DNA from: a virus | Lineage: Duplodnaviria; Caudoviricetes | Direction: 5' to 3' (one strand) | Virus record (IMG/VR): IMGVR_UViG_3300032007_000017 | Length of the DNA: 64,000 bases | In this document: positions 2,607-23,721 of the stretch, in pieces | How positions within the stretch are numbered: position 1 is the first letter of the stretch | How the letters are laid out: each line of letters begins with the position of its first letter | Notes under the pieces: generated by a model | What the model was told of the DNA's origin: nothing | Seen by the model: the letters and a program-made list of their open reading frames with translations, nothing else | Database searches by the model: none | Made by a program: the position numbers and the translations under genes

Positions 2607-4602
2607 TAATTCTTCGAAGACTATTCCTTTTGGCTCTTTCACAAGAAAGGGATTCACACAATCATTTTTCTGTGAATGCTGTTTCAATACAGCAGTGACA
2701 AACTCTTCAATATCATTTGATGGGGATGTCACTTGTAGTAACGACATGGATATCAGTCCAATATTTAGTAATCCCAATATCGATATATATTGCAAAAAAT
2801 GCGATAATTACATGGTAGAGGTAGATACTGGAATTATCGAGCATGTAGTCAGACTCAATAAAGCTGGATGCTTTACGCTTTTTTCTTGCGAAGGTCATAT
2901 CAATCGTCCGACAGCGAAAGCAATAGTATCTGAGGATGATGGGGATGTGTATGAAAATCCATATATCGCGGTTGTTCTTAATAAAAAGAATGCAGAAATT
3001 ATTAAGAAAACCTTCGAGGATTTCTACGCAGAGCTTAATAGGTTAAGCAACCCAGTCAAGTTTAGTAAGTATGATATGTATCCTATGGTCAATATCTATG
3101 ATATTAAACTTGAAGATAGAGAAGAAATCTACAGAATCGGCATGGATCTGTTGACAGATTGTATGCCGTCTGAGAATGAGTTTGAAGATTGCAGACGCAC
3201 TTGGTTAACATGCTTGGCAAAAGCAATCAAAGCCATCGAAGATGATGAGAAAGAAAATAAGAGATATACTGCTGGAGACATTATCGATCTATTTGAAAAT
3301 AAGTATGGATTTGATAACGTCGAATGCGATGAAGGTGATTACGAAACTGGAAGTGGATCGAGCCTCAAACTTGAAGTTCCAATTAATCAGTCATCGGATA
3401 TCATATCTTCCATTATAGAGTTTTGTAACACCAAGTCGTATCATATTATGGACATGAATCCTATTACTTCTGGAGATAATTATGCATCTTCTATCATCAT
3501 ACGTGTTCACATGCCGACAACCGTCTTTGACACAGAAGAAGGATTCTTAAACCAGGAAAGAGAATTCTTCAATAGTATGTATAAGTTCTTCTATGAAAAA
3601 TGGGAGAAAAATTATAAAAGTCCTTATGAAGTAAAAGGGATAAATTATGATGTAGAGGCTATCAATATCCCAAGTGATATATTTGGTAAAACCATTAATA
3701 TGCTCAAGGATAAGGGGTATAGCATTGATCAAGAATATGGTACTATCAAGAATGACATCACTGGATTCTTTACTACCAAGCCTGCTGTTACAATAACAGG
3801 CAATACCAACAAATATACCGAGATCTTGTCGATTCTTGATAGACATCGCCTAAATACAACATATAAAGCCAAAACGTTTATTTCAACCAGTAACAAAAAG
3901 ACTAGTAGTAATGAATTTGCGACGCATATTACCATTAATCAGTCATTCAATGTATTTACTGCTGAAGAAGTAAAACAAATTAGAGAGAATTTCTGGAAAG
4001 CTATGGAATTTGTTGCCATTGAGATCTCTCAAAATATCGAAAGCAGTAAAATCAAAAGCAACAAATATGATGGGTTATTTATTAAGTATTTCGGTGAGAA
4101 TAGTATAATCAAAGAGATCAAGAAGCATTCCGGCGAAAATAATATAATCAGAGAGATCAAGGATGGTGAATTTCCTGCAGCAACATTCAACAGTCTTGCG
4201 CATAGTGCATTCTATGATGTAAGTACGCAATTAGTTAGACTATTCGGTGAAACAAATAATTCAAAAGCAAAATTCGTCGTCATGAATCTCAATATAGGAA
4301 TCTCTGACGAGAATATAGTCACCTATCCTATTTTATCGGTCTATGTAAAGGACGATGAGTCCCTTTATAATAGGATTAATAGTCTGGTAAAAGGATATGA
4401 TATGAGATTAGTAAAAGTTGCAATGTATGGTGGTTTTAAAACGTCTACTATGAAAATCTCATTAGGAGAAGACTATGAGTTGATGAAATACCTGCGTGAG
4501 ATTGATGTCGATGATAAATCGGTTATCTATCGTATCAAGACTGCTCTCTTCTGGGCAGAAGTCGATGAGATTCTCAAGAACATTGAAAATCTCGATGACT
4601 GA
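2596..4602 (+). CDS. Hypothetical protein with N-terminal Cys pairs and LNxxGxxTxxSCEGH motif
   Basis: 668-aa ORF; CECC/CKKC putative Zn site; terminator follows. Confidence 0.75.
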   Translation: METNNSSKTIPFGSFTRKGFTQSFFCECCFNTAVTNSSISFDGDVTCSNDMDISPIFSNPNIDIYCKKCDNYMVEVDTGIIEHVVRLNKAGCFTLFSCEGHINRPTAKAIVSEDDGDVYENPYIAVVLNKKNAEIIKKTFEDFYAELNRLSNPVKFSKYDMYPMVNIYDIKLEDREEIYRIGMDLLTDCMPSENEFEDCRRTWLTCLAKAIKAIEDDEKENKRYTAGDIIDLFENKYGFDNVECDEGDYETGSGSSLKLEVPINQSSDIISSIIEFCNTKSYHIMDMNPITSGDNYASSIIIRVHMPTTVFDTEEGFLNQEREFFNSMYKFFYEKWEKNYKSPYEVKGINYDVEAINIPSDIFGKTINMLKDKGYSIDQEYGTIKNDITGFFTTKPAVTITGNTNKYTEILSILDRHRLNTTYKAKTFISTSNKKTSSNEFATHITINQSFNVFTAEEVKQIRENFWKAMEFVAIEISQNIESSKIKSNKYDGLFIKYFGENSIIKEIKKHSGENNIIREIKDGEFPAATFNSLAHSAFYDVSTQLVRLFGETNNSKAKFVVMNLNIGISDENIVTYPILSVYVKDDESLYNRINSLVKGYDMRLVKVAMYGGFKTSTMKISLGEDYELMKYLREIDVDDKSVIYRIKTALFWAEVDEILKNIENLDD

Positions 4603-4696
4603 AAAAGAAAGGGCATAGCCCTTTCTTTTTTGTATTCCCATTATTTGCTTGACCTGTAACATCCTAATAAAATTCCTAAATAAGGAGTGTGAAGAC

Positions 4697-5452
4697 ATGG
4701 CTAATACGTTCGAGGCTAAATCACGTATTCCCACTAGACCTTTGTCTTTTGCGAATATTGACATGATTATGCCGAAAGAACTCGCTGTCGATTATACTAA
4801 TGGTAATATCTATGTCAGCGATGAGAACGGTGTCGTTCACGATCTTTCTGAGGCGGTCGCTGAGATCGTTGCCTCTTCTGAAGAGTTAGCCGAAACGATT
4901 AAGGTTAAAATCGAAGATGAGCATGGAGAGGAACAAGAAGTTGTTCTTGAGACTGCTATTGCTCAGATGGCTATTGATATCAGAAATCTGAAAACTAAGT
5001 CTGAAGAAATTCAGGCTGCTGTTGATGAGATTACTCAGACTGATCCAGAAACTGGCGAGAAAGTTGTTAAAATCAAGCCAGGCGATATTATCGATGACTC
5101 TACTCATCGCTTTGTTACAGATACACAATTAGAAGAGCTTTCCAAAAAGATCTCTATTGATGGTATCGTCCTCACTCTTTATGCCGTTAATTGGACAGGT
5201 AGTGAAGCTCCCTATACGCAGACTGTTTCTAATGCTGCTTTTACAGCTAATATGCCTCGTCCTACTATTGATATCAACCACTACGAATCAGAAGTTTATG
5301 AAGATGCTATGGATGCAGAGGATGCATGGTGCAAAGTATACCGTGCCGTCACTGCAGATGGTAGTATCACCTTCTATGCTACAGAGAAGCCTGAAGTGAA
5401 TCTCTCTGTATTCGTCGAGATTAAGAAATCCGGTCTTTCCGGAGTTTCGTAA
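4697..5452 (+). CDS. Tail-fibre-associated structural protein
   Basis: Late promoter AACA-TCCTAA-TA; C-terminal domain homologous to that of the 9049-11049 fibre (WTGSEAPY...AWCKVYRAVT...ITFYA). Confidence 0.7.
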   Translation: MANTFEAKSRIPTRPLSFANIDMIMPKELAVDYTNGNIYVSDENGVVHDLSEAVAEIVASSEELAETIKVKIEDEHGEEQEVVLETAIAQMAIDIRNLKTKSEEIQAAVDEITQTDPETGEKVVKIKPGDIIDDSTHRFVTDTQLEELSKKISIDGIVLTLYAVNWTGSEAPYTQTVSNAAFTANMPRPTIDINHYESEVYEDAMDAEDAWCKVYRAVTADGSITFYATEKPEVNLSVFVEIKKSGLSGVS

Positions 5453-5467
5453 GGGAGGTTTCTATCA

Positions 5468-6124
5468 ATGAAATATATCGGTAGAGAAGAAATTATCACT
5501 GATACCAAAGATTGGACTGTTCCCAAAGCTAGAGATCAGAAATTCCAGGTTGCTCTTTATGGCGCTGGAGGATCTGGCTCTATCAATGGAAACTATTTCC
5601 AAGATGTTGGTGGAGCTGGTGGTGGTTCCGGCGATTATGCTTTTAAAGAGCTGGAACTTAAAGAAGGAGATCGCATTCATATTGAGATCGGTAAGGGCGG
5701 AGAAGGTATGACTGGCTCTGACAAAGTAGCTGATTATATTGGCCACATTGTCGGTAAAACTGGTGGTACTACGTCCTTTGGAGAGTATCTTTTCGCTGTC
5801 GGTGGCCTTGGCGGAAATATCAACCAAGGTGGAGATGGCGCAAATGATGGTGGCGCTACCGGTGAGACTGCCGAAGGCCACTATTTTGGAAACGGTTCTT
5901 CTGGTACCGTTGACGGTTTAAACTATACTTCTGGCGGTGGCGGTGCTGCTGTTAATGCCCGTGGTGTCGGCGGATCGGCCGAGTTCAACCAGGGTAATGG
6001 CGGTACTTCCGCTGGCGGAGCTGGATGCTTCGTAGAGAAGGTTGACGGGAAAGTTTCTCGTCGTATTGGTGCTGGTGGTAATGGTGTTTGTATCATTACC
6101 TATTATGCTCCAATTGGTGGTTAA
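5468..6124 (+). CDS. Glycine-rich tail-fibre tip/adhesin-like protein
   Basis: GAGGSG...IEIGKGG...GGTTSFGEYL...GGNGVCIITYY; paralogue of the 19877 and 21147 genes. Confidence 0.7.
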   Translation: MKYIGREEIITDTKDWTVPKARDQKFQVALYGAGGSGSINGNYFQDVGGAGGGSGDYAFKELELKEGDRIHIEIGKGGEGMTGSDKVADYIGHIVGKTGGTTSFGEYLFAVGGLGGNINQGGDGANDGGATGETAEGHYFGNGSSGTVDGLNYTSGGGGAAVNARGVGGSAEFNQGNGGTSAGGAGCFVEKVDGKVSRRIGAGGNGVCIITYYAPIGG

Positions 6125-6176
6125 AAACCAATATTAAAACCATTTAATAAAACATTGTAAAGGAGAAATATCTGAT

Positions 6177-6911
6177 ATGGCTATTTTCCAGATTGTTAAT
6201 GGCAAGTGCCATTGGCGTACCCCGTTTACCTCTCTCGATGAAGTTAAGGGTAAGTTCCCTCCCGACTGTCTGTTTGTCGATGCTCCTGACTATGTCAATG
6301 AGCAGTGGGGATTTGATGAGACTGAGATCGGCGACGATCGTTTCATTAAGCCGCAGCCGCCTGAGGGATGGATCTACGATGATGAATCCGGTCAGATGAT
6401 GCCTGAGGATATGGCTGAGCAGGCTCTCGAAGATGCTAAGAATGGTAAGCAGGCTGAGAATAATCAGCAGTTTGCTTCTTGGCTGAATGAGCATCCTCTT
6501 ACCTGGAAGGATGGTAAGAAGTATGGTGTTACACTGGCTGATCAGCAGGAGATTGAGCTGAACCTGGTTTCCTATACGATGGCTATTCAGGCTATCGATA
6601 GCAATACCGATATGACTGAGGAAGAGAAGACCGCTGCTAAGGCTGCTGTTGTTCTTGAGTGGCATGCTTCTAAGGAAGCTTGTGTTACTTGGGCATACGA
6701 GGATCTGGTTGCTCTGTCCATGGCTATTCGTACCTATATCTATGGTGCGTATACTTTGAATCAGACTTATAAGACCAGCATCTTCGCTGCTGAGTCTCGT
6801 AAGGATCTTAATGCTATCGAGTTCCACTATGATTACCTCGTTGATGATGGTAATGGTGGAGTCAAGTATGTGGTTCCTGAGAAGACTGAAAAAGCTACCT
6901 CTGAGGAGTAA
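6177..6911 (+). CDS. Tail fibre assembly/chaperone-like protein
   Basis: Position in tail-fibre cluster; GW..D motifs and helical C-terminus typical of fibre chaperones. Confidence 0.55.
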   Translation: MAIFQIVNGKCHWRTPFTSLDEVKGKFPPDCLFVDAPDYVNEQWGFDETEIGDDRFIKPQPPEGWIYDDESGQMMPEDMAEQALEDAKNGKQAENNQQFASWLNEHPLTWKDGKKYGVTLADQQEIELNLVSYTMAIQAIDSNTDMTEEEKTAAKAAVVLEWHASKEACVTWAYEDLVALSMAIRTYIYGAYTLNQTYKTSIFAAESRKDLNAIEFHYDYLVDDGNGGVKYVVPEKTEKATSEE

Positions 6912-6969
6912 TCGTTAGATTCATAAATCTCAGACACATATTATAACAATGTAGAAAGGAGGTCTAATA

Positions 6970-7008
6970 ATGGACGATGATATGTTCATCGGCGTCTTTG
7001 CTGATTAA
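6970..7008 (+). CDS. 12-aa acidic mini-ORF MDDDMFIGVFAD
   Basis: Own early motif (~6934) and strong SD AAAGGAGG. Confidence 0.4.
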   Translation: MDDDMFIGVFAD

Positions 7009-7125
7009 CGTTCCCAGTAAGAGTTATGAAGCTTATGAGTCGGTCCATTGCTAGGCCAAAATCTATGAAATCAAAGAGGACACCCCGCTAAGGGTGTCCT
7101 CTAATATTTAAGGAGGATAATATCT

Positions 7126-7527
7126 ATGGAACCCAAAATTATTAACAATAATAGCATGCGCTGCATGCAACTCTTTATGCGGGACCGTGTAATCGACAAG
7201 GATGTGATCCCGAGTGTCACACCTAAAGGAAACATTATGATCTCAAAAAACATACGATCGAAAGATGACAACACAAAACATGTCATTTCCTCGATTGAGT
7301 TCGGGGATGTAGTGACCTTTATGGCTGCATTCTACCATGATGACAAAATGGTTGAGTGCTTAAGAAATGTAGTGAACCCCATTCCCAGCGGTAAAGATTT
7401 GCTGCCGCCCGAAACTGCGTTTGACTTTTTGATAGTGCAGTTTATGGGTTTCGAATATGAGAAGTTATATGAGATATACAGAGCCGTAAAGAACGGTTAT
7501 CAGTTTGGCTACGATGTAGTCAAATAA
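7126..7527 (+). CDS. Hypothetical protein
   Basis: SD AAGGAGG; terminator follows. Confidence 0.7.
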   Translation: MEPKIINNNSMRCMQLFMRDRVIDKDVIPSVTPKGNIMISKNIRSKDDNTKHVISSIEFGDVVTFMAAFYHDDKMVECLRNVVNPIPSGKDLLPPETAFDFLIVQFMGFEYEKLYEIYRAVKNGYQFGYDVVK

Positions 7528-7596
7528 GGGGAAAGGGCTTCGGCCCTTTCTTTTTTTGTCTCGCAAACACTTAAATAAGAATGGAGGTTGTTTATT

Positions 7597-8466
7597 ATGA
7601 TGAATAATAAGCCTGTTTCTTATTTACAAACAGATCCTAAGTGGAAGAATAAATCTTATTCCACTAAAGGAGAGAGTACTACAATCGGTGCATCTGGATG
7701 TGGCCCAACTTGTATGGCAATGGTAATTTCTACTTGGACAGATAAGAAAGTCACTCCAGTAGATACTTGTAAATGGTCTGTTGATCATGGTTACAAAGCC
7801 TATAAGAATGGAACTTATCATTCTTATTTTACTCCTCAAGCGGCAGCATATGGATTATCTTGTATTCAGATTAATTCTAGTCTGATCTCTGATATGTCTG
7901 CTACAAATGCTGCTAAAGTACATCAGATTGCTAAAGATTATGTCCTGGAAGGCAATCTTGTAATCTGCCTTATGGGACCTGGTAATTGGACTAAAGGTGG
8001 ACACTATATACTTTGGTATTCAATTGACAATGAAAACAATGTATATATCAATGATCCTGCAAGTACTGCAAGTCATAGAGTTAAGAATACCTGGTCTCTT
8101 CTGAAATCTCAAGTTCGTAAATACTGGGTAATTAAAGTACCTAAGGAGGTTATTTCGATGACTAATTCTGAAGTGAAGCAGCTTATTAAAGATGAAGTTG
8201 CTGCTGCAATGGCTGCTAGTAAGCCTGCCACTGATACCATTCCTGCTAGCTGGGCTAAGTCTGCTTGGTATGATGCATGTGTAAAGAAGATCTTTGATGG
8301 ATCTAATCCTCATGGAAACGTCACTCGTGAGCAGATTGCTGCTGTTCTTAGTAGACTTAACCTGCTGGATGCTAATGCTACTGTTCCTGCAGACTTCCCC
8401 TGGAATAAGATCAAGAATGGTAACTTCCAGCAAGTGTATCTTGACTACAAAGCTGGCAAAAAATAA
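7597..8466 (+). CDS. Peptidase C39-like cell-wall hydrolase with SLH domain (putative endolysin)
   Basis: YLQTDPKW...SGCGPTCMAMV...GGHYI...INDP; C-terminal SWA...FDGSNPHGNVTREQIAAVLSR (SLH); late promoter. Confidence 0.8.
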   Translation: MMNNKPVSYLQTDPKWKNKSYSTKGESTTIGASGCGPTCMAMVISTWTDKKVTPVDTCKWSVDHGYKAYKNGTYHSYFTPQAAAYGLSCIQINSSLISDMSATNAAKVHQIAKDYVLEGNLVICLMGPGNWTKGGHYILWYSIDNENNVYINDPASTASHRVKNTWSLLKSQVRKYWVIKVPKEVISMTNSEVKQLIKDEVAAAMAASKPATDTIPASWAKSAWYDACVKKIFDGSNPHGNVTREQIAAVLSRLNLLDANATVPADFPWNKIKNGNFQQVYLDYKAGKK

Positions 8467-8543
8467 GATATAGAGACAGAGAGAATCACTCTCTGTCTCT
8501 TCTAATTTCAACATCTTAGTAAACCGTTGTATAAAAGGAGGAA

Positions 8544-9047
8544 ATGTTGATGTCTGTAGGAGATATCCGTTCTCCGGTAAGACCTCTTACGACAGGATCT
8601 CTGTCAAAGATTTATCCTGGAGAATTGCTAATCGATCCTTCTACTGGTAATTTCCGGTACTACGATTCGAACAATCACGTTATTCAGCATAACAAACCTG
8701 GTAGTTTGACTGTTATTTATGGAACTCAAACCATCTTGGATGGTGCAGATCTTTCTGGTAACGTTAGTGTTACAGTTCCTGAATACTCTCATCCTACTCA
8801 TACAGCTCATACAACTTCTGCTCTGTATAAGATTACAGTTGATGCATTGGGCCATGTCGATAGTGCTACTGCTGTTCAGTTTGATGATGAACCCACAGAA
8901 GATAGTACTAATCTTATGACAAGTGGCGCAATCTATGTGATGGAGAAGTACCTTCTCGATCTGATTGCCGCGCTATCTATCACTGTCAATGACCATACCC
9001 TGGTTATAAAGACTCCAGAAGAAACCAATATTGAGGGGGGTATGTAA
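8544..9047 (+). CDS. Tail-associated structural protein
   Basis: Late promoter; YSHPTH...KITVDALGHV motif typical of fibre proteins. Confidence 0.6.
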   Translation: MLMSVGDIRSPVRPLTTGSLSKIYPGELLIDPSTGNFRYYDSNNHVIQHNKPGSLTVIYGTQTILDGADLSGNVSVTVPEYSHPTHTAHTTSALYKITVDALGHVDSATAVQFDDEPTEDSTNLMTSGAIYVMEKYLLDLIAALSITVNDHTLVIKTPEETNIEGGM

Positions 9048-9048
9048 G

Positions 9049-11049
9049 ATGGCCGATTCTTATATTGATCAAATCTCACGTGCAGGCGTATCATATGACA
9101 TCAGAGACTCTGAGGTTCAAGATTGGGCACGTGGTGCAACTAAACCGTCATATACCAAGTCTGAAGTTGGTCTTGGTAATGTCGATAATACTGCAGATGC
9201 TAATAAGAACGTCGCTACTGCAGAGGCTCTTTCGAGCGGTGCAAAGATCGGTATTACTGGCGGCGCTACTGCTGCTGGTGTAAACTTCGATGGTTCTGGT
9301 GATATTAATCTTATTGTCACTAGCCTCGATGCTACTAAACTGAGTGGTACTGTTCCTCTGTCTAGTATTCCTAAGGGTGCTGTTTCTGAGGAAGTTGTCG
9401 TTGCTAACTATGATGCTATGCTTGCCCTGACTTATGCTCAGGTGCAGCAAGGTGATACAGTTAAGCTGAACGATACTGGTGTCATGTACTATGTCAAGGA
9501 TGACACCAAGCTTGGCTCTGCCGCTGCCTTTGATATGTATAAGGCCGGTGAAGCCTCTTCTGTTGACTGGGCTAATGTCAAGAGTAAGCCTTCTAGCTTT
9601 ACTCCGTCTAGCCATACTCATCCTATGTCTGATATCGATGAACTTACTACTGCTCTGGCTGGTAAGTCTGATACTGGTCATGGACATAGTATGTCCGATA
9701 TTACTGGCTTGAGTGATGCTCTCGGAGCTAAGGCTGATGCAGATGCTATGACAACAGCCCTGGCTGGTAAGTCTGATACTGGTCATGGACACACCATGTC
9801 TGATATCACTGGCTTGAGCGATGCTCTTGCTGGTAAGGCTGCAGCTACTCATACTCATGCTATTTCTGATGTCACTGGACTTCAGGATGCTCTTAATGGA
9901 ACTTCCTCATCCACTCATGGCCACGGTAATATTAGTAATACTGGTACTCTTAGTTCTGCTAGTGTTGTTGTTGTTACTGATGGCACTAAGAAGATCGGAG
10001 TTAGCACAATCACTACAACTAAACTTGGATATCTGAGTGATGTCACTTCTAATATCCAGGCTCAGATTAATGCTAAGGCTGCTTCTAGCCATACTCATGC
10101 AATGAGTGATATCACTGGCTTGAGTGATGCTCTTGCTGGTAAAGCTGCAGCTACTCATGGTCATGAAATCTCTGAGATTACTGATCTTAGTGACACTCTT
10201 GCCGGTAAGGCTGCTGCTTCTCATAGCCATGCAATCACTGATATTACCAACCTTCAGACCACTCTGAATGCCAAGGCTGCTTCTACGCACACCCATGGTA
10301 ATATTACCAATGCTGGTGCTATTGGAACCGATTCTGGTCTGATTGTTGTTACTACCACGAGTGGTGTTCTTACTGCTAAAACGATTGCTAATGCTGGTCT
10401 GGCTGCTGCCTCTCATAGCCATGCAATGAGCGATATCACTGGATTGAGTGATGCTCTTGCTGGTAAGGCTGCTTCTAGCCACTCTCATGCAATCGCTGAT
10501 ATTACCAACCTTCAGACCACTTTGAATGCTAAGGCGGCTTCTGATCATGTCCACGGTAATATCACAAATGCTGGTGCTATTGGAAGCACTTCCGGCCTGA
10601 TTGTTGTTACTACTACGAATGGTGTTCTTACCACTAGTACTATTACTACAACCAAGCTTGGCTATCTGTCTGGTGTTACCTCTGATATTCAGACTCAGTT
10701 GAATGCTAAGGCTGCTTCTAGCCACTCTCATGCGATCTCTGAGATTACCAATCTTCAGTCGACGCTTGATGCTAAGGCTACTACTGCTAAGTGGACTAAT
10801 CTTAGCATTGCTACTGGTTGGTCTGGCTCTGCTGCTCCGTACACGAAGACTCTCACCGTCTCTGGTATTCTTGCCACTGATGTTCCTGTGATTGATTTCC
10901 GTGCTACTGGTACATACAGCACCGATAAGACTGCTGAGGAAGCCTGGTGCAACGTCTATCGTGCGGTTACTTCTGCCAATACGATTACATTCTATGCACA
11001 TGAGGCTCCCACGGTTGCAATTCCTGTTACCATTCAGGTCACTCGCTAA
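9049..11049 (+). CDS. Long tail fibre with HxH repeats
   Basis: Multiple HxHxxSDIxGLxxALxGKA repeats; Ala/Thr/Ser-rich. Confidence 0.85.
   Translation: MADSYIDQISRAGVSYDIRDSEVQDWARGATKPSYTKSEVGLGNVDNTADANKNVATAEALSSGAKIGITGGATAAGVNFDGSGDINLIVTSLDATKLSGTVPLSSIPKGAVSEEVVVANYDAMLALTYAQVQQGDTVKLNDTGVMYYVKDDTKLGSAAAFDMYKAGEASSVDWANVKSKPSSFTPSSHTHPMSDIDELTTALAGKSDTGHGHSMSDITGLSDALGAKADADAMTTALAGKSDTGHGHTMSDITGLSDALAGKAAATHTHAISDVTGLQDALNGTSSSTHGHGNISNTGTLSSASVVVVTDGTKKIGVSTITTTKLGYLSDVTSNIQAQINAKAASSHTHAMSDITGLSDALAGKAAATHGHEISEITDLSDTLAGKAAASHSHAITDITNLQTTLNAKAASTHTHGNITNAGAIGTDSGLIVVTTTSGVLTAKTIANAGLAAASHSHAMSDITGLSDALAGKAASSHSHAIADITNLQTTLNAKAASDHVHGNITNAGAIGSTSGLIVVTTTNGVLTTSTITTTKLGYLSGVTSDIQTQLNAKAASSHSHAISEITNLQSTLDAKATTAKWTNLSIATGWSGSAAPYTKTLTVSGILATDVPVIDFRATGTYSTDKTAEEAWCNVYRAVTSANTITFYAHEAPTVAIPVTIQVTR
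9610..10790 (+). repeat. Intragenic tandem repeats of the tail-fibre shaft
   Basis: Recurrent ~66-75-nt units plus duplicated HGNITNAGAIG and TTTKLGYLS blocks. Confidence 0.85.
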
Positions 11050-19876: not shown

Positions 19877-20974
19877 TTAATCTTGTATTTCCCAATAATA
19901 GTATTGGATTATGCATACGCCATCTCCACCATTTGATGTAATTTGATTATTACCATCAGTAAAATCACCACCATTAGCAAATAATCCATATCCACCACCA
20001 CCTCTTCCATTTGCTGGAGTATAGTATCCTCCGCCACCTCCACCATTATCTCCTCCTTTAGCAGATTTTCCATATCCGCCACCGCCTCCACTTGCACCAC
20101 TACCATAAAGAGTATATACCATATAAGAAGAAGCAGCTGCTGTTGAATTTCCACCATTACTTCCATAACCTCCACCTCCTCCAAATGCTATATTATAAAA
20201 TGATGTATTATATCCACCACTCCATCTATCTCCATTAAGTCCTACTCCTCCATATGCAATTCCTTGTTCTGATTCTTCTACATCATTAAAACCGATAGTA
20301 TTTGTTCCTTCATATCCATTTAAATGAGATGAATCTCCTCCATTACCACCATATATTCCTCCAATTCCACTCCCTCCAGTAGCTTTTATTCTTTTCCACC
20401 ATTTACTTTCCCAACAATCTAAATATATTCCTCCGCCACCTCCTCCCCATGGGCCACCATTTCCGCCTCGCCCATTGATATCTATTGTTTTACCGTCAGT
20501 TCCGCAAGTTCCAGAACACGTGAGTCCTCCCCCTCCAAATTGATAACCAATTCCTGCAGTTCCATAATTATTACTATCTGGGCTTCTTGTTAAATAACCA
20601 CCACCGCCACTTCCACCATTTCCGCCACTTCCACCAACTCTAATATCCCATGCTCCTCCTCTACCATTAGCACTTAAATAATCGCCAAATGCTGTTGTAC
20701 CTCCAGCTGTATATGTTCCCCCTCCAGTTCCAATTGTTATATTTATTGTCTCATTTTTATTAATAATTATAGAATCATTATTCATCCATCCTCCTCCACC
20801 TCCTGCCCAGAGACTACCACCTCCTCCGCCACCAAAAATTCTAACATGAAATTCATTATTTATTGCTTTAGGAGTAATGTATTCTTGGCTTTTTGTAATA
20901 ATATCAGTGCGAAGTACTTTAATTGCATTTAATCCACCAGAACCACCACGTCTGCTAATAATTCCTTCACTCAT
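19877..20974 (-). CDS. Glycine-rich adhesin-like protein B
   Basis: MSEGIISRRGG...VRIFGGGGGG...GGTTAFGDYLSANG...GDGVCIIQYY; polyglycine repeats with variable loops. Confidence 0.75.
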   Translation of the reverse strand: MSEGIISRRGGSGGLNAIKVLRTDIITKSQEYITPKAINNEFHVRIFGGGGGGSLWAGGGGGWMNNDSIIINKNETINITIGTGGGTYTAGGTTAFGDYLSANGRGGAWDIRVGGSGGNGGSGGGGYLTRSPDSNNYGTAGIGYQFGGGGLTCSGTCGTDGKTIDINGRGGNGGPWGGGGGGIYLDCWESKWWKRIKATGGSGIGGIYGGNGGDSSHLNGYEGTNTIGFNDVEESEQGIAYGGVGLNGDRWSGGYNTSFYNIAFGGGGGYGSNGGNSTAAASSYMVYTLYGSGASGGGGGYGKSAKGGDNGGGGGGYYTPANGRGGGGYGLFANGGDFTDGNNQITSNGGDGVCIIQYYYWEIQD

Positions 20975-20977
20975 AAA

Positions 20978-21007
20978 AGAGTACTCTCCTTTCTAGGAGA
21001 GTACTCT
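20978..21007 (-). promoter_or_regulatory. 13-bp hairpin sequestering the SD of gene B
   Basis: mRNA AGAGUACUCUCCU-AGAA-AGGAGAGUACUCU-UUU-AUG. Confidence 0.85.
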
Positions 21008-21044
21008 ATAACAGCACCCTCCTCGAAGATATAGTAGTTATTAA

Positions 21045-21122
21045 CTACCCTTCCGGGGGGGGGGCAAACTGAATCAAACTAGTTCTATTGTGGATGTGAA
21101 CCAGCATATGAAGATGAATCAT
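21045..21122 (-). CDS. Leader peptide containing a C10 tract (MIHLHMLVHIHNRTSLIQFAPPPEG)
   Basis: SD-like AAAGGGG; one extra C extends it to 50 aa ending in an ATGA overlap with gene B. Confidence 0.65.
   Translation of the reverse strand: MIHLHMLVHIHNRTSLIQFAPPPEG
21055..21064. repeat. G10/C10 homopolymer (candidate phase-variation tract)
   Basis: Ten consecutive G in AT-rich DNA. Confidence 0.9.
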
Positions 21123-21146
21123 AGTTATAAGCCCCTTTATTAAGGT

Positions 21147-22223
21147 TTAAGCATAATACTGAACTATGCAAACACCAGAACCGCCTGTTCCGCCGCCTCC
21201 TGAATTACTAGAATTTCCTTCTCCACTACCCCCTCCTCCGCCAAGTATTCCATTATACCCCCATCCATTTTGAACAGCATCTCCTCCATTACCATATCCT
21301 CCTCCTCCCCCTCCACCTAATGTATTGCCATTTCCACCTTTACTAAAATAGCCTCCACCACCAGCACCACCTCCCTGAATTCCCCATTTTCCCCATCCTC
21401 CATTTGCATTTTTTCCATATCCTCCCCCACCTCCACCATAATTACCACCACTACCTCCGTATCCACCACCTCCACCACCATAAAAAACATAACCATATCC
21501 AGTATATGAATTAATTCCTTTTCCTCCATTACCGCCAAACCCTCCTCCACCACCATATTCCCCTCCAATTGCAGGACCTTTAAAATTATCTGATATATTG
21601 GTCCATAACATTGTATTTGTTCCATTGCTTCCATTTACTCCATCTGATCCTCCTCTTCCGCCATAAATACCATTGCTTCCCCATGGAGATCCACCTCCTC
21701 CATAGGTTCCTCCACTGCCGCCTTGACGAGTTCCTCCTCCACCACCACCCCACATACCTCCATTACCCCCATTATAAGCACCACCTCCAGCACCTCCACC
21801 AAATTGATATCCTATACCACCATTTCCTTGACCTCCACCTCCACCTGAACCGCCACTACCTCCATTTGCTGTAACGGAAGAGCCTGTTCCGCCATTAGCA
21901 CTTAAATAAGTACCGAAAGATGTAGTTCCACCAGTTCTTGAAGGTATTTGAGCATTGCCTCTGGCTCCGCTTCCTCCTTCTCCAATAATAACAGAAATTT
22001 CCGTTCCATTATCGATATCAAAATCTCCATTATTCATCCATCCTCCTCCTCCACCTCCTCCACGTTGAGCACCGCCTCCACCACCTCCAAATATTCTTAC
22101 ACTTACATTTCCTTTATGGTTAGGTATAGTAAATGCACCAGTCCCTAAAAATAATGTAACTAAATTTCCTCCACCACCTCCAGATCCTGAACCACCTCTC
22201 CTACTAATTACCGCCTCACTCAT
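21147..22223 (-). CDS. Glycine-rich adhesin-like protein A (start MSEAVISRRGG)
   Basis: Paralogue of gene B with the same N-terminus and C-terminal GSGVCIVQYY. Confidence 0.75.
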   Translation of the reverse strand: MSEAVISRRGGSGSGGGGGNLVTLFLGTGAFTIPNHKGNVSVRIFGGGGGGAQRGGGGGGGWMNNGDFDIDNGTEISVIIGEGGSGARGNAQIPSRTGGTTSFGTYLSANGGTGSSVTANGGSGGSGGGGGQGNGGIGYQFGGGAGGGAYNGGNGGMWGGGGGGTRQGGSGGTYGGGGSPWGSNGIYGGRGGSDGVNGSNGTNTMLWTNISDNFKGPAIGGEYGGGGGFGGNGGKGINSYTGYGYVFYGGGGGGYGGSGGNYGGGGGGYGKNANGGWGKWGIQGGGAGGGGYFSKGGNGNTLGGGGGGGYGNGGDAVQNGWGYNGILGGGGGSGEGNSSNSGGGGTGGSGVCIVQYYA

Positions 22224-22361
22224 ATATTTCAACACTCCTTTTATCGAGGAGGGTGTTGACAATTTTATAAAGAGAAGGATCAATATCCTTCTCTCAGAAA
22301 TGAAATAGTGATAGCCCTCGCTATCACTTCTTAATGTTTTTAACAAGGCCCATCACCTCGC

Positions 22362-22393
22362 AAAAAAAATAATGGTATGCACACGCATACCAT
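22362..22393 (-). terminator. Attenuator-like terminator inside the cassette leader
   Basis: AUGGUAUGC-GUGU-GCAUACCAU-UA-U8. Confidence 0.75.
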
Positions 22394-22473
22394 CGATTAA
22401 ATGAATCATTACCACGTCATCCAAAAATGCTATGATACCCCGATTCCCTCCCCCCATTTATTACTACACTCAC

Positions 22474-22485
22474 GGGGGGGGGGGG
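22474..22485. repeat. G12/C12 homopolymer (candidate phase-variation tract)
   Basis: Twelve consecutive G. Confidence 0.9.
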
Positions 22486-22518
22486 ATCAATGCACCATAT
22501 CAGACGTGCTGATCCATT

Positions 22519-22530
22519 TACTATTCAGTT
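22519..22530 (-). promoter_or_regulatory. Late promoter of the glycine-rich cassette
   Basis: AACT-GAATAG-TA. Confidence 0.55.
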
Positions 22531-22638
22531 ATATAAATTAAATTTTTATTATAAAGAGGGAAAAAAAGAAGGAGCCGAAGCTCCTTCTCCTTTATATTAA
22601 TGTACTCGGCTAGCCAGAAGCACACTAATACCATATAT

Positions 22639-23187
22639 TTATTTCTTAGTTACAGGATTAGGATTTTCGTCATACACACTTCCCAAAGTGGGATTTGTGC
22701 AATAGAGATAGTTATGGTAATTAGCTTTATCGAATTCACAAGAAAATGATGCATATTTACCAACATATGGTTTAACTTCTTCGAGCTTTTTCTTACTTGA
22801 AAACCGCAGTTCAATATGGCTGGATGTAGTGGTATCATCTGGTGTGATAATCACTACATAATAATTCCCACTTTTTTCAGTTGGGATATTATTTATATAT
22901 CCAGTCACTAAGCTTTTGTATTTCTTGTATTTCTTTAGATACTTTTTATCCATAGCAGCTAATCTGCTATATTCATCCCAATCTATGGCGGTTCCCTCGG
23001 TAAATTCTACTTCAGCCTCTACTACCTTTTCTGGAAATGTAATATTAATTTTGCTGAAGTCTGGCTTCACAACACAGCAAATGATGGTGATGCAAACCAA
23101 TAGTATTGAAATAAGGCTGATGAATTTATCAAACTTAGTGAATTGTATGTCTACTGTTTTCTTGTCTTCGCTAAAATCGATTTTCAT
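22639..23187 (-). CDS. Membrane-anchored hypothetical protein (possible OB-fold)
   Basis: One TM helix then a beta-rich domain. Confidence 0.6.
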   Translation of the reverse strand: MKIDFSEDKKTVDIQFTKFDKFISLISILLVCITIICCVVKPDFSKINITFPEKVVEAEVEFTEGTAIDWDEYSRLAAMDKKYLKKYKKYKSLVTGYINNIPTEKSGNYYVVIITPDDTTTSSHIELRFSSKKKLEEVKPYVGKYASFSCEFDKANYHNYLYCTNPTLGSVYDENPNPVTKK

Positions 23188-23202
23188 ATTTTACGCCTCC
23201 GT

Positions 23203-23721
23203 TTAATCTTCATAAGGATACCCAAATTGTACCCAAATCACTTCATCTTTTTCAACTACCTCATCAAGCAGTCGAATTAGATCTTCTTCGGTAATTTCGG
23301 TAATAGGAATATGTTTCTCTTTGCTATGTTTTTTACCAAGTCTTTGATCATTATAGTTCTCAAAATACGATGATCTGGTTTCATCTAGGTTTAACAAAAT
23401 TCGATTAGTGCGATAAGATCCATCGCCGACATGTTTGAGATACTTATGGTATCTTTCATTGTCAATAATGCGCTTTGCGATAAATTGCGCACACTGCTCA
23501 TACTTTTTGCTATAATCACTCTCAAGAGATGCGGGTTTAAGCTCGAATTTGTCAAGGTATTCCTTCATTCTTTTAACAATTGTTGCTGGATCTGTTTCAA
23601 AGACACTTCTTTTTTCGTAGTCATGGAAATCATCCATAGATTTTTCGCCGAGGATATGCTCATTCTCGGTAAACTCTCTCCAGTTATAGCCCTTCGGCCA
23701 GTCTTTCGGTTGTGGACGCAT
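23203..23721 (-). CDS. Hypothetical protein (early)
   Basis: SD AAAGGAGG; early motif. Confidence 0.7.
   Translation of the reverse strand: MRPQPKDWPKGYNWREFTENEHILGEKSMDDFHDYEKRSVFETDPATIVKRMKEYLDKFELKPASLESDYSKKYEQCAQFIAKRIIDNERYHKYLKHVGDGSYRTNRILLNLDETRSSYFENYNDQRLGKKHSKEKHIPITEITEEDLIRLLDEVVEKDEVIWVQFGYPYED

What the first reader, a model, noticed from the sequence alone, without database searches (positions are those of the whole stretch)
22221..22530. Unbroken relay of eight overlapping mini-ORFs through a C12 tract, a terminator and stacked hairpins
Seen (minus strand, after AACT-N6-TA): near-leaderless MDQHV* (22517), MVH* (1 nt later), TTGA to LIPPPP* (C12), GTGA to an 18-aa ORF, ATGA to MTW*, TAATG to MIHLIDGMRVHTIIFFAR* (spans the U8 terminator), TGATG to MGLVKNIKK*, GTGA to a 15-aa ORF, then TTGA into gene A's frame through its SD hairpin. 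Seven of eight stops are TGA although most genes here end in TAA. Both leaders contain an MIHL-starting ORF. C11 would divert ribosomes to a non-overlapping TAG before the terminator; C12 can also pair with the downstream G-rich run. Inference: a ribosome-relay attenuator acting as master switch for the cassette. Caveat: NTGA overlaps arise easily by chance.
Basis: partly seen in the sequence, partly recalled or inferred. Interest (0 to 1): 0.82.

Follow-up and report, generated by a model that had tools for sequence, protein, structure and literature searches.

The report
Poly-C leader before phage fibre gene
The chain of tiny overlapping reading frames is real on paper but looks accidental; what is really there is a long folded RNA leader with a slippage-prone run of 12 C's, one copy of a module that sits in front of nearly every glycine-rich tail-fibre-like gene in a group of uncultured giant phages and probably lets the phage vary which fibres it makes.

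Summary
A chain this long is rare in dinucleotide shuffles (7 of 2000). But the link rule is post hoc, there are about 34 comparable region-strands, seven of nine restarts lack a Shine-Dalgarno, and nine homologous or paralogous long leaders lack an equivalent relay (one has a 6-ORF chain). The ribosome relay is therefore not supported.

The window is part of a 270-kb AR9-like jumbo phage. The only two G/C homopolymers of 7 or more bases in 64 kb lie in the leaders of its two glycine-rich genes. In relatives, 32 of 40 glycine-rich ORFs have a poly-C tract upstream, against 3 of 108 other ORFs. Tract length differs between assemblies with matching flanks.

Short leaders, including gene B's, carry a uORF that reaches the gene start only at C11. 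Long leaders, including this one, have no conserved uORF. They share a late promoter, a rod in which poly-C pairs with a G-run, terminator-like hairpins and an SD-burying hairpin. How tract length acts in long leaders is unresolved; equilibrium folding shows no length dependence.

The scan has noted poly-G leader switches in other phages.

The parts
22567..22588 (-). Terminator hairpin that ends the upstream 182-aa gene (22639-23187)
   Evidence: 9-bp stem followed by a T-run in the sequence
22519..22530 (-). Late-promoter-like motif AACTGAATAGTA (AAC[AT]-N6-TA). The inferred transcription start is the final A at 22519.
   Evidence: 22 of 65 motif hits fall in the 12.8% of the window that is intergenic, and this is the only hit serving genes A and B. 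The AR9 late consensus is AACA-6N-TA/G with the last base as TSS (PMC5312081). The block is 19/22 identical in the paralogous leader L035 while its flanks diverge.
22399..22519 (-). Rod-like 121-nt hairpin. The closing stem is AAAUGGAUCA.GCACGUC : GACGUG..UGAUUCAUUU. The apical helix is poly-C paired with the G-run.
   Evidence: The whole leader has z = -8.7 against shuffles. The closing stem GGAUCA:UGAUUC recurs with different extensions in L035 and L003.
22474..22485 (-). C12 homopolymer (G12 on the + strand), a slippage-prone tract
   Evidence: only two G/C runs of 7 or more bases exist in 64 kb, and both lie in leaders of glycine-rich genes. The same C12 is present in an independent Logan assembly (L001). 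A JGI contig breaks exactly at the tract (L002).
22438..22455 (-). G-run GGGGGGAGGGAATCGGGG, the pairing partner of the C tract
   Evidence: all 12 C's pair with G6 + G2 + G4. A C-tract paired with a G-run is predicted in nearly all (20 of 21) long-leader variants examined.
22361..22394 (-). Intrinsic terminator inside the leader: 10-bp stem followed by U8
   Evidence: The pairing probability is 0.99 at every modelled tract length. AR9 transcripts stop at predicted intrinsic terminators (PMC5312081).
22297..22328 (-). Second terminator-like hairpin: 9-bp stem with an ATTTCATTT tail
22272..22295 (-). Third hairpin, GAGAGAAGGAU-AUUG-AUCCUUCUCU, with a U-rich tail
22230..22258 (-). RBS hairpin CAACACCCUCCUC..AAGGAGUGUUG, which buries gene A's SD (22235-22240). 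The 5' arm CACCCUCCUC is the exact complement of the invariant GAGGAGGGUG of the short leaders.
   Evidence: mean unpaired probability of the SD is 0.09. The sequence is nearly identical in L003, L013, L035 and L036.
22280..22517 (-). The eight mini-ORFs of the claimed relay; judged incidental
21147..22223 (-). Gene A, 358 aa, a glycine-rich protein resembling phage tail-fibre or tail-tip proteins
   Evidence: Pfam Gly_rich_2 match below the family cutoff. AF2 model has pLDDT 91. Top Foldseek hits are the Bxb1 tail tip 9d93_Q and the cyanophage Pam3 fibre 7ypx (E about 3e-4), followed by the ALK/LTK TG domain.
20975..21146 (-). Short-class leader of gene B. It contains uORF ATG 21122 (SD-like AAAGGGG), C10 at 21055-21064, GAGGAGGGTG at 21015-21024 and an SD hairpin at 20978-21007. 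At C10 the uORF stops at TAG 21045, which is the OFF state.
19877..20974 (-). Gene B, 365 aa, glycine-rich paralogue

Best explanation
The region is the 297-nt 5' leader of gene A. It is transcribed from a single AR9-type late promoter with its start at about 22519. It is the 'long form' of a leader module that precedes nearly every MSE-type glycine-rich, tail-fibre-like paralogue in this clade of uncultured ~260-270-kb jumbo phages. The order of elements is: promoter; a rod-like hairpin whose apex is a hypermutable poly-C tract (C12) paired with a G/A-rich, SD-like run; one to three intrinsic-terminator-like hairpins; then a hairpin that buries the SD. By default most transcripts should end at the U8 terminator, and those that read through should be poorly translated, so gene A and the downstream cassette are held low. 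I infer that polymerase slippage in the C tract, a contingency locus, changes the behaviour of the C:G rod and so the fraction of productive mRNA. This would act at the RNA level, on terminator read-through and/or release of the G-run to open the CACCCUCCUC anti-SD arm, and not through translation of the mini-ORFs. Shown here: the anatomy, its conservation across relatives, the near-exclusive association of poly-C with glycine-rich genes, tract-length differences between assemblies, and, for the short leaders, a frame-dependent uORF coupling in which C11 is ON. Inferred only: that tract length matters in the long leader, and by which step.
For: Only two G/C homopolymers of 7 or more bases exist in 64 kb, and both lie in glycine-rich gene leaders. 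In relatives and in a second array of the same phage, 32 of 40 glycine-rich ORFs have C8 or longer within 620 nt upstream, against 3 of 108 other ORFs; those three are a paralogue and two shadow ORFs. The tract is always C on the coding strand. Tract length differs between assemblies with matching flanks in about 9 of 14 sets. Across 21 long-leader variants, the C tract pairs with a downstream G-run in 20, and all have 1-3 perfect hairpins (mostly 9-12 bp) with T-rich tails before the gene. The stems flanking the C:G helix covary: CUGUAAA/UUUACAG, GAA/UUC and AGCGUUGC/GCAACGCU. Tract length correlates with G-run size (Spearman 0.57, n = 40). Some homologues have terminator/antiterminator alternatives adjacent to the G-run (L035 X2:X3; L038 and L041 GGUGUACUUGUG:CACAAGUACACC, which covary). 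Other late-promoter motifs in the window (for example at 2503, 11861 and 41890) lie immediately upstream of their SD, so a 297-nt leader looks exceptional. AR9 polymerases terminate at intrinsic terminators. In 22 short-leader variants exactly one post-tract frame stays open to -4..+5 of the gene ATG (+13 in one variant), and the uORF is in that frame only at C11.
Against: Equilibrium folding shows no dependence on tract length in this leader. The terminator probability is 0.99 and the SD stays masked for C0 to C20. No antiterminator alternative is detectable in leader A. The C12 tract itself is identical in the two assemblies that span it. Homopolymer lengths in short-read assemblies are error-prone, and tracts at contig ends are unreliable. 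There are no transcript data. The long-only correlation between C and G counts is weak (rho 0.33, p = 0.10). No Rfam family matches.
Confidence: 0.55

Rival explanations
1. Ribosomes start near the 5' end and are handed from one overlapping mini-ORF to the next through C12, the terminator and the hairpins. Their passage melts the terminator and the SD hairpin. C11 would break the relay.
For: The chain is literal and rare in shuffles: 7 of 2000 overall and 5 of 2000 reaching the gene frame. It is the longest chain in the window. C11 does end at a non-overlapping TAG. A leader-peptide plus terminator switch of this general kind exists in S. gallolyticus pil1 (PMC3894217). One relative leader (L013, gene at 5001) has a uORF whose frames do reach its terminator.
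Against: The relay is not conserved. Seven of nine homologous or paralogous long leaders have chains of only 1-3 ORFs reaching the gene frame, and leader B has 1. Seven of nine restarts lack an SD. The model needs eight successive reinitiations, several from GTG or TTG. The TGA bias is circular, and the NTGA count equals the shuffle expectation. The link rule was fitted after seeing the sequence, and about 34 region-strands were available.
Confidence: 0.05
2. The stretch from promoter to U8 terminator (22519-22363, about 157 nt) is a stand-alone small RNA. Its G-run, once freed from the poly-C strand, pairs in trans with the CACCCUCCUC anti-SD arms of glycine-rich gene RBS hairpins and activates their translation.
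For: There is a discrete promoter, rod and strong terminator. The G-runs of long leaders are complementary to the conserved CACCCUCCUC, which stays conserved even where its hairpin partner changes (L038 and L041). The invariant GAGGAGGGTG of short leaders is its perfect complement.
Against: No second promoter motif for gene A lies downstream of the terminator, so read-through is needed in any case. SD-like and anti-SD-like sequences are complementary by construction. The G-run of leader A (GGGGGGAGGG) matches CACCCUCCUC less well than those of relatives do. There are no expression data.
Confidence: 0.15
3. The leader is only a stabilising or insulating structure (5' stem-loops, leaky terminators). 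The C tract is a GC clamp whose length drifts neutrally, so there is no switching.
For: Folding predicts the same structure for any tract length. C12 is identical in two assemblies. Some length differences between assemblies may be technical.
Against: Long homopolymers are mutationally unstable, yet they are maintained before glycine-rich genes and essentially nowhere else, across diverged phages and paralogues. In the sister short leaders, tract length clearly sets a reading frame.
Confidence: 0.15
4. The rod is a put/nut-like RNA that modifies the phage RNA polymerase into a terminator-resistant form (processive antitermination). That would explain why several terminators follow it.
For: The architecture is promoter, then structured RNA, then 1-3 terminators, then genes, in all long leaders.
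Against: No sequence or structural similarity to known antitermination RNAs was found (Rfam: none). Nothing is known about such a mechanism for AR9-type polymerases. The idea rests on architecture alone.
Confidence: 0.08

Closest known systems
Hypermutable homopolymer contingency loci in phages: poly-G tracts in receptor-binding genes of Campylobacter Fletchervirus phages (cited from general knowledge and earlier scan notes; paper not read here) and SSRs in T2/T4 (bioRxiv 10.1101/2025.10.21.683753)
   Same: Slippage-prone G/C runs are tied to host-recognition-type genes of lytic phages. Tract length differs between otherwise matching genomes.
   Different: Those tracts lie inside coding sequences and act by frameshift. 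Here the tract lies in a non-coding 5' leader, is paired with a G-run, and is longer (C12-C24). In the long form no reading frame depends on it.
Streptococcus gallolyticus pil1 switch: repeat-length variation in a leader peptide combined with a premature terminator (Danne et al. 2014, PMC3894217)
   Same: A repeat tract lies in a leader upstream of an intrinsic terminator, ahead of surface or adhesin genes. One relative leader (L013, gene at 5001) fits it.
   Different: Leader A has no SD-led leader peptide crossing the tract, and no frame that reaches the terminator directly (+54, +1 and +41 against a stem starting at +79).
Translational coupling through an SD-masking hairpin, as in RNA phage MS2 coat/replicase and the ermC-type leader (general knowledge)
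   Same: In the short leaders (gene B), a uORF in the right frame reads through the SD hairpin and stops at -4..+5 of the start codon in all but one variant (+13 there).
   Different: The frame is set by a hypermutable C tract (C11 = ON). This does not apply to the long leader studied here.
Bordetella pertussis fim promoters and Neisseria opc/porA: poly-C or poly-G tracts in promoters (general knowledge; PMC1891110 is listed but was not read)
   Same: A C tract of about 12-15 bases lies upstream of a surface-structure gene and gives phase variation.
   Different: In those systems the tract sets the spacing of promoter elements. Here it lies at +35 to +46 of the transcript, downstream of a promoter that needs only positions -11 to +1.
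AR9 late transcription units (PMC5312081)
   Same: The promoter motif is AAC[AT]-N6-TA. Long 5' UTRs occur in AR9 (26-491 nt) and intrinsic terminators are used.
   Different: The RNA polymerase beta' is only about 30% identical. No poly-C leader was found in the papers I searched and read; this was not an exhaustive search.

Membership tests
SSR contingency locus (phase variation) | Long homopolymer or short tandem repeat at a fixed place relative to a gene | tested here: met
   C12 at 22474-22485. The tract is found before 32 of 40 glycine-rich ORFs against 3 of 108 others.
SSR contingency locus (phase variation) | Repeat number varies between otherwise identical genomes | tested here: inconclusive
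   Met for the family: about 9 of 14 tract sets with matching flanks differ. For this tract, both spanning assemblies have C12 and a third assembly breaks at the tract. Short-read homopolymer calls are error-prone.
SSR contingency locus (phase variation) | Repeat number changes expression | tested here: inconclusive
   In short leaders the uORF reaches the gene start only at C11. In this long leader no frame or equilibrium-structure effect was found. Expression itself is not testable with these tools.
Leader-peptide transcription attenuator (trp or pil1 type) | Leader ORF with its own RBS, conserved in relatives | tested here: not met
   Seven of nine chain starts lack an SD. No conserved uORF crosses the tract in long leaders.
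Leader-peptide transcription attenuator (trp or pil1 type) | Intrinsic terminator between promoter and gene | tested here: met
   10-bp stem plus U8 at 22394-22363. Terminator-like hairpins are present in all long leaders.
Leader-peptide transcription attenuator (trp or pil1 type) | Mutually exclusive antiterminator structure | tested here: not met
   None was found in leader A: the terminator's 5' arm stays unpaired in pre-terminator folds. Alternatives do exist in the paralogue L035 and in L038.
Termination-reinitiation relay | Stop-start overlaps conserved in homologues | tested here: not met
   Chains reaching the gene frame are 1-3 ORFs in seven of nine long leaders, 4 and 6 in two, and 1 in leader B.
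AR9-type late promoter | AACA-N6-TA/G with the last base as TSS | tested here: inconclusive
   The site reads AACT-N6-TA, one base off the AR9 consensus. AAC[AT]-N6-TA is enriched in intergenic DNA (22 of 65 hits in 12.8% of the sequence). No TSS data exist.
Any Rfam family (riboswitch, leader, sRNA) | Covariance-model match at the gathering score | tested here: not met
   There were 0 matches in the window. The best E-value hits in 22000-22800 are far below their family cutoffs.
Glycine-rich phage fibre/tip domain (Pfam Gly_rich_2; TNF-like plus polyglycine-II) | Profile or fold match | tested here: inconclusive
   Pfam score is 21.6 bits against a cutoff of 24.3. The AF2 model has pLDDT 91. 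Foldseek finds Bxb1 tail tip and Pam3 fibre at E about 3e-4, but TM is only 0.3-0.44. There is no sequence hit in the PDB.

The most novel reading that the evidence does not exclude
The poly-C:G-run rod of the long leaders is a new kind of hypermutable riboregulator. Slippage in a non-coding homopolymer would reset an RNA element, acting as an antiterminator or anti-anti-SD either in cis or as a small RNA. That element would gate a whole array of alternative receptor-binding proteins from one late promoter of a jumbo phage that uses its own RNA polymerase. It would work alongside uORF frame switches (C11 = ON) on the individual downstream paralogues, giving two-tier stochastic control of the fibre repertoire.
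Probability: 0.25. Interest if true: 0.8.

Novelty: new variant of a known kind. Interest (0 to 1): 0.55.

Why it matters
Phase-variable host recognition in phages has been shown mainly for coding poly-G tracts in Campylobacter phages and T-even phages. Here an uncultured clade of AR9-like jumbo phages appears to place a poly-C leader module in front of most members of arrays of glycine-rich fibre or tip paralogues. This phage has at least six such genes, and the module comes in two designs. The short design gives a clear and testable rule: C11 lets a uORF unmask the start codon. The long design, which is the region examined here, has no known mechanism. It is a good candidate for studying how a non-coding homopolymer can act through RNA structure with a non-canonical viral RNA polymerase. 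For annotation, poly-C tracts break the assemblies of these phages, and mini-ORF chains in such leaders should not be over-read.

Tried and rejected
1. DNA search of 21000-23300 against the phage collection found no match. tblastn with gene A also found none.
2. IMG/VR scans with gene A and with the upstream 182-aa protein found no relatives. Relatives came only through the protein database and exact-protein look-ups.
3. The pattern poly-C..GAGGAGGGTG in IMG/VR gave only unrelated elements. Three of the six metagenome pattern hits were unrelated.
4. There are no tRNA or tmRNA genes and no Rfam family match.
5. No whole genome is held for this window.
6. G-quadruplex-aware folding predicted no G4 at any tract length.
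7. A thermodynamic switch set by tract length was rejected for leaders A and B.
8. A generic rule that a uORF reaches the terminator in long leaders was rejected; only one leader type fits.
9. The MAFFT alignment of short leaders (A1) was too poorly aligned in the hairpins for pair counting, so per-sequence folds were used instead.
10. My terminator-probability index for L035 was mis-set (it printed 0.0) and is not used.
11. The strict N-terminal regex undercounted the association, so Gly content was used instead.
Full report
CONTEXT. The window is part of a 270,305-bp metagenomic contig. It carries a split RNA polymerase beta' about 30% identical to those of Yersinia phage phiR1-37 and Bacillus phages AR9 and PBS1. 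It is therefore a distant, uncultured AR9-like jumbo phage. The finding covers the 415-nt gap between a 182-aa ORF (22639-23187, minus strand) and gene A (21147-22223, minus strand). Downstream lie a paralogue, gene B (19877-20974), then an anaerobic ribonucleotide reductase activase-like gene and a WDGH-domain gene.

THE OBSERVATION.
- No other 299-nt window of the 64 kb reaches this length.
- The [AGT]TGA count equals the shuffle expectation (8 against 7.7). The '7 of 8 TGA' bias follows from requiring NTGA overlaps.
- Seven of the nine starts have no Shine-Dalgarno.
- The window has 17 intergenic gaps of 150 nt or more on two strands, and the rule was fitted post hoc. The corrected significance is therefore marginal.

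CONSERVATION TEST. Close DNA relatives are absent from the phage and IMG/VR collections. Protein searches, however, found many glycine-rich homologues on ~255-274-kb contigs, and I fetched their loci. One of them, L035, is a second glycine-rich array of the same phage: it encodes P0013, which lies on the same 270-kb contig. In nine homologous or paralogous long leaders, the longest relay reaching the gene frame is 1-3 ORFs in seven, and 4 and 6 ORFs in two. Leader B of the window has 1.

WHAT IS CONSERVED. The only two G/C homopolymers of 7 or more bases in the 64 kb are C12 in leader A and C10 in leader B.
- Across the fetched loci, every poly-C tract of 8 or more bases that I inspected lies on the coding strand upstream of a glycine-rich gene.
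- Of unique ORFs of 150 aa or more, 32 of 40 glycine-rich ones have such a tract within 620 nt upstream, against 3 of 108 others. Those three are a 21%-Gly paralogue and two shadow frames.
- A third glycine-rich ORF in the window's tail module (5468-6124) lacks the tract.
- Tract length differs between assemblies with matching flanks in about 9 of 14 sets, for example C15/C15/C15/C12, C15/C16/C20, C14/C18/C18/C18 and many C10/C11 pairs.
- Several contigs break at the tracts.
- Caveats: short-read homopolymer lengths are noisy, tracts at contig ends sit next to junk sequence, and the C12 of leader A is the same in both assemblies that span it.

TWO LEADER CLASSES.

Short leaders lie between paralogues and include gene B's. 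They read: stop codon; an SD-like AAGGGG; a uORF ATG within an ATGAWTCAT core..GCC-poly-C (9-12); a small variable hairpin; the invariant GAGGAGGGTG; then a hairpin that buries the SD; then ATG.
- In all 22 variants, exactly one post-tract frame stays open through the hairpin and ends next to the gene's ATG (at -4, -2, +1 or +5 in 21 variants and at +13 in one). The distance from tract to ATG varies from 67 to 85 nt.
- The uORF is in that frame only when the tract is C11. Tracts of C9, C10 and C12 stop early.
- Gene B is thus OFF in this contig (C10) and in the JGI contig (C9).
- All 17 unique short leaders fold the same way. Poly-C plus a covarying flank stem pairs with G.GG.GGG (about -16 kcal/mol). 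The SD hairpin is about -21. An alternative helix between GAGGAGGGTG and the anti-SD arm is about -17.

Long leaders precede the first gene of an array and include the region under study. They have no conserved uORF across the tract and no frame that reaches the gene start. Only one leader type (L013, gene at 5001) has frames that reach its terminator.
- They share a late-promoter-like motif. AAC[AT]-N6-TA is threefold enriched in intergenic DNA and matches the AR9 late consensus AACA-6N-TA/G with the last base as TSS (PMC5312081).
- The poly-C tract (C8-C24) lies 35-70 nt into the transcript.
- A G/A-rich run follows, to which the tract is predicted to pair in nearly all variants (20 of 21). 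Between the G-run and the gene there are 1-3 perfect-stem hairpins with T-rich tails, and finally an SD-masking hairpin.
- The 5' arm of that last hairpin, CACCCUCCUC, is nearly invariant.

LEADER A IN DETAIL. The first 121 nt form one rod. All 12 C's pair with G6 + G2 + G4. The closing stem uses the 'MIHL' sequence UGAUUCAUUU as its 3' strand. The U8 terminator follows. The whole leader folds far better than shuffles (z = -8.7). Several other late-promoter motifs in the window sit directly in front of their SD, so a 297-nt leader looks exceptional. No second promoter motif lies between the terminator and gene A, so genes A and B depend on read-through.

MECHANISM. I tested whether tract length could work through equilibrium RNA structure. 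It does not: the terminator probability is 0.99 and the SD stays masked for C0 to C20 in leader A, and the SD stays masked at all lengths in leader B. No G-quadruplex is predicted. In some homologues there are genuine alternative pairings next to the G-run that compete with the terminator, namely L035 X2:X3 and L038/L041 with covarying extensions. None is detectable in leader A. I therefore commit to an RNA-level, tract-dependent gate on read-through and/or SD unmasking as the most likely function. The length dependence in the long class is inferred from three things: maintenance of the tract, its polymorphism in relatives, and its co-variation with G-run size (rho 0.57 overall, 0.33 among long leaders alone). 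Rival readings are a trans-acting small RNA, a neutral structural clamp, a processive antitermination RNA, and the ribosome relay.

THE GENES. The AlphaFold model of gene A is confident (pLDDT 91, pTM 0.88). Its best structural matches are the mycobacteriophage Bxb1 tail-tip protein and the cyanophage Pam3 fibre, followed by the ALK/LTK TNF-like/glycine-rich domain. TM-scores are modest, so the assignment as a fibre-tip or receptor-binding type protein is tentative. No sequence match exists in the PDB, and Pfam Gly_rich_2 scores just below its cutoff.

NOVELTY. Contingency loci in phages are known from Campylobacter phages and from the T2/T4 preprint. Leader-peptide plus terminator phase variation is known in S. 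gallolyticus. Earlier notes of this scan describe poly-G leader switches in other phages. I found no description of poly-C leaders in AR9-like jumbo phages, nor of a non-coding C:G rod of this kind, but my literature search was limited.

VERDICT. The relay is a curiosity of one sequence. The leader belongs to a real, conserved and probably phase-variable module, and the working of its long form remains open.

Noticed in passing
window 20975-21146 (minus strand): Gene B's leader has a uORF (ATG 21122, after the SD-like AAAGGGG) that runs into C10 and stops at TAG 21045. Only C11, C8 or C14 would carry it through the SD hairpin to a TGA overlapping gene B's ATG. The same C11 = ON rule holds in all 22 short-leader variants from relatives.
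   Followed up: yes
window 21015-21024; short leaders in L003, L008, L011, L013, L017, L033, L035, L036, L044: GAGGAGGGTG is 100% invariant in all short leaders while its flanks vary, including at third-codon positions of the uORF frame. It is the exact complement of CACCCTCCTC in the RBS hairpin of the long leaders (window 22244-22253).
   Followed up: partly
window 21108-21122; L003:2320-2340 and 5265-5285; L011; L013: The roughly 27-nt block around the palindromic core ATGAWTCAT (between CTTAT and ATAAG) occurs in either orientation in different short leaders. An ATG opens the uORF in both orientations.
   Followed up: partly
L013:4600-5001 (also L014, L015): One long-leader type has an ATG 7-10 nt before its C16-C24 tract. 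Two of its three post-tract frames stay open for about 220 nt and stop exactly at the foot of a terminator. This fits a leader-peptide/terminator switch like S. gallolyticus pil1.
   Followed up: partly
L035 (JGI Ga0256407_10000893), 3038-9711: This is a second array of four glycine-rich genes (473, 392, 429 and 432 aa) belonging to the same phage as the window. It carries five poly-C tracts (C8, C11, C17, C12, C10), so the phage has at least six poly-C-gated paralogues.
   Followed up: partly
L002, L005, L006, L016-L020, L033, L046 (contig ends): Independent assemblies of these phages often break at or next to the poly-C tracts, and some show unrelated sequence on the far side. Tract lengths at contig ends are unreliable.
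   Followed up: partly
window, 22 intergenic sites (e.g. 2503, 11861, 28394, 41890, 30821): The motif AACA-N6-TA(A) is enriched in intergenic DNA and in several cases lies immediately before an SD. It is probably the late promoter of this phage's non-virion RNA polymerase.
   Followed up: partly
window 5468-6124 (+ strand): A third glycine-rich ORF (218 aa, 27% Gly) in the tail module lacks both the MSE..ISRRGG N-terminus and any poly-C tract.
   Followed up: no
L024, L025, L028, L029, L031 (IMG/VR contigs, unrelated phages): A different conserved element was hit by chance. It reads ACCACCA-C10-14-TTATATA-GAAGGAGGAGGGTGGTGG, a C-tract/G-run hairpin in small viral contigs.
   Followed up: no
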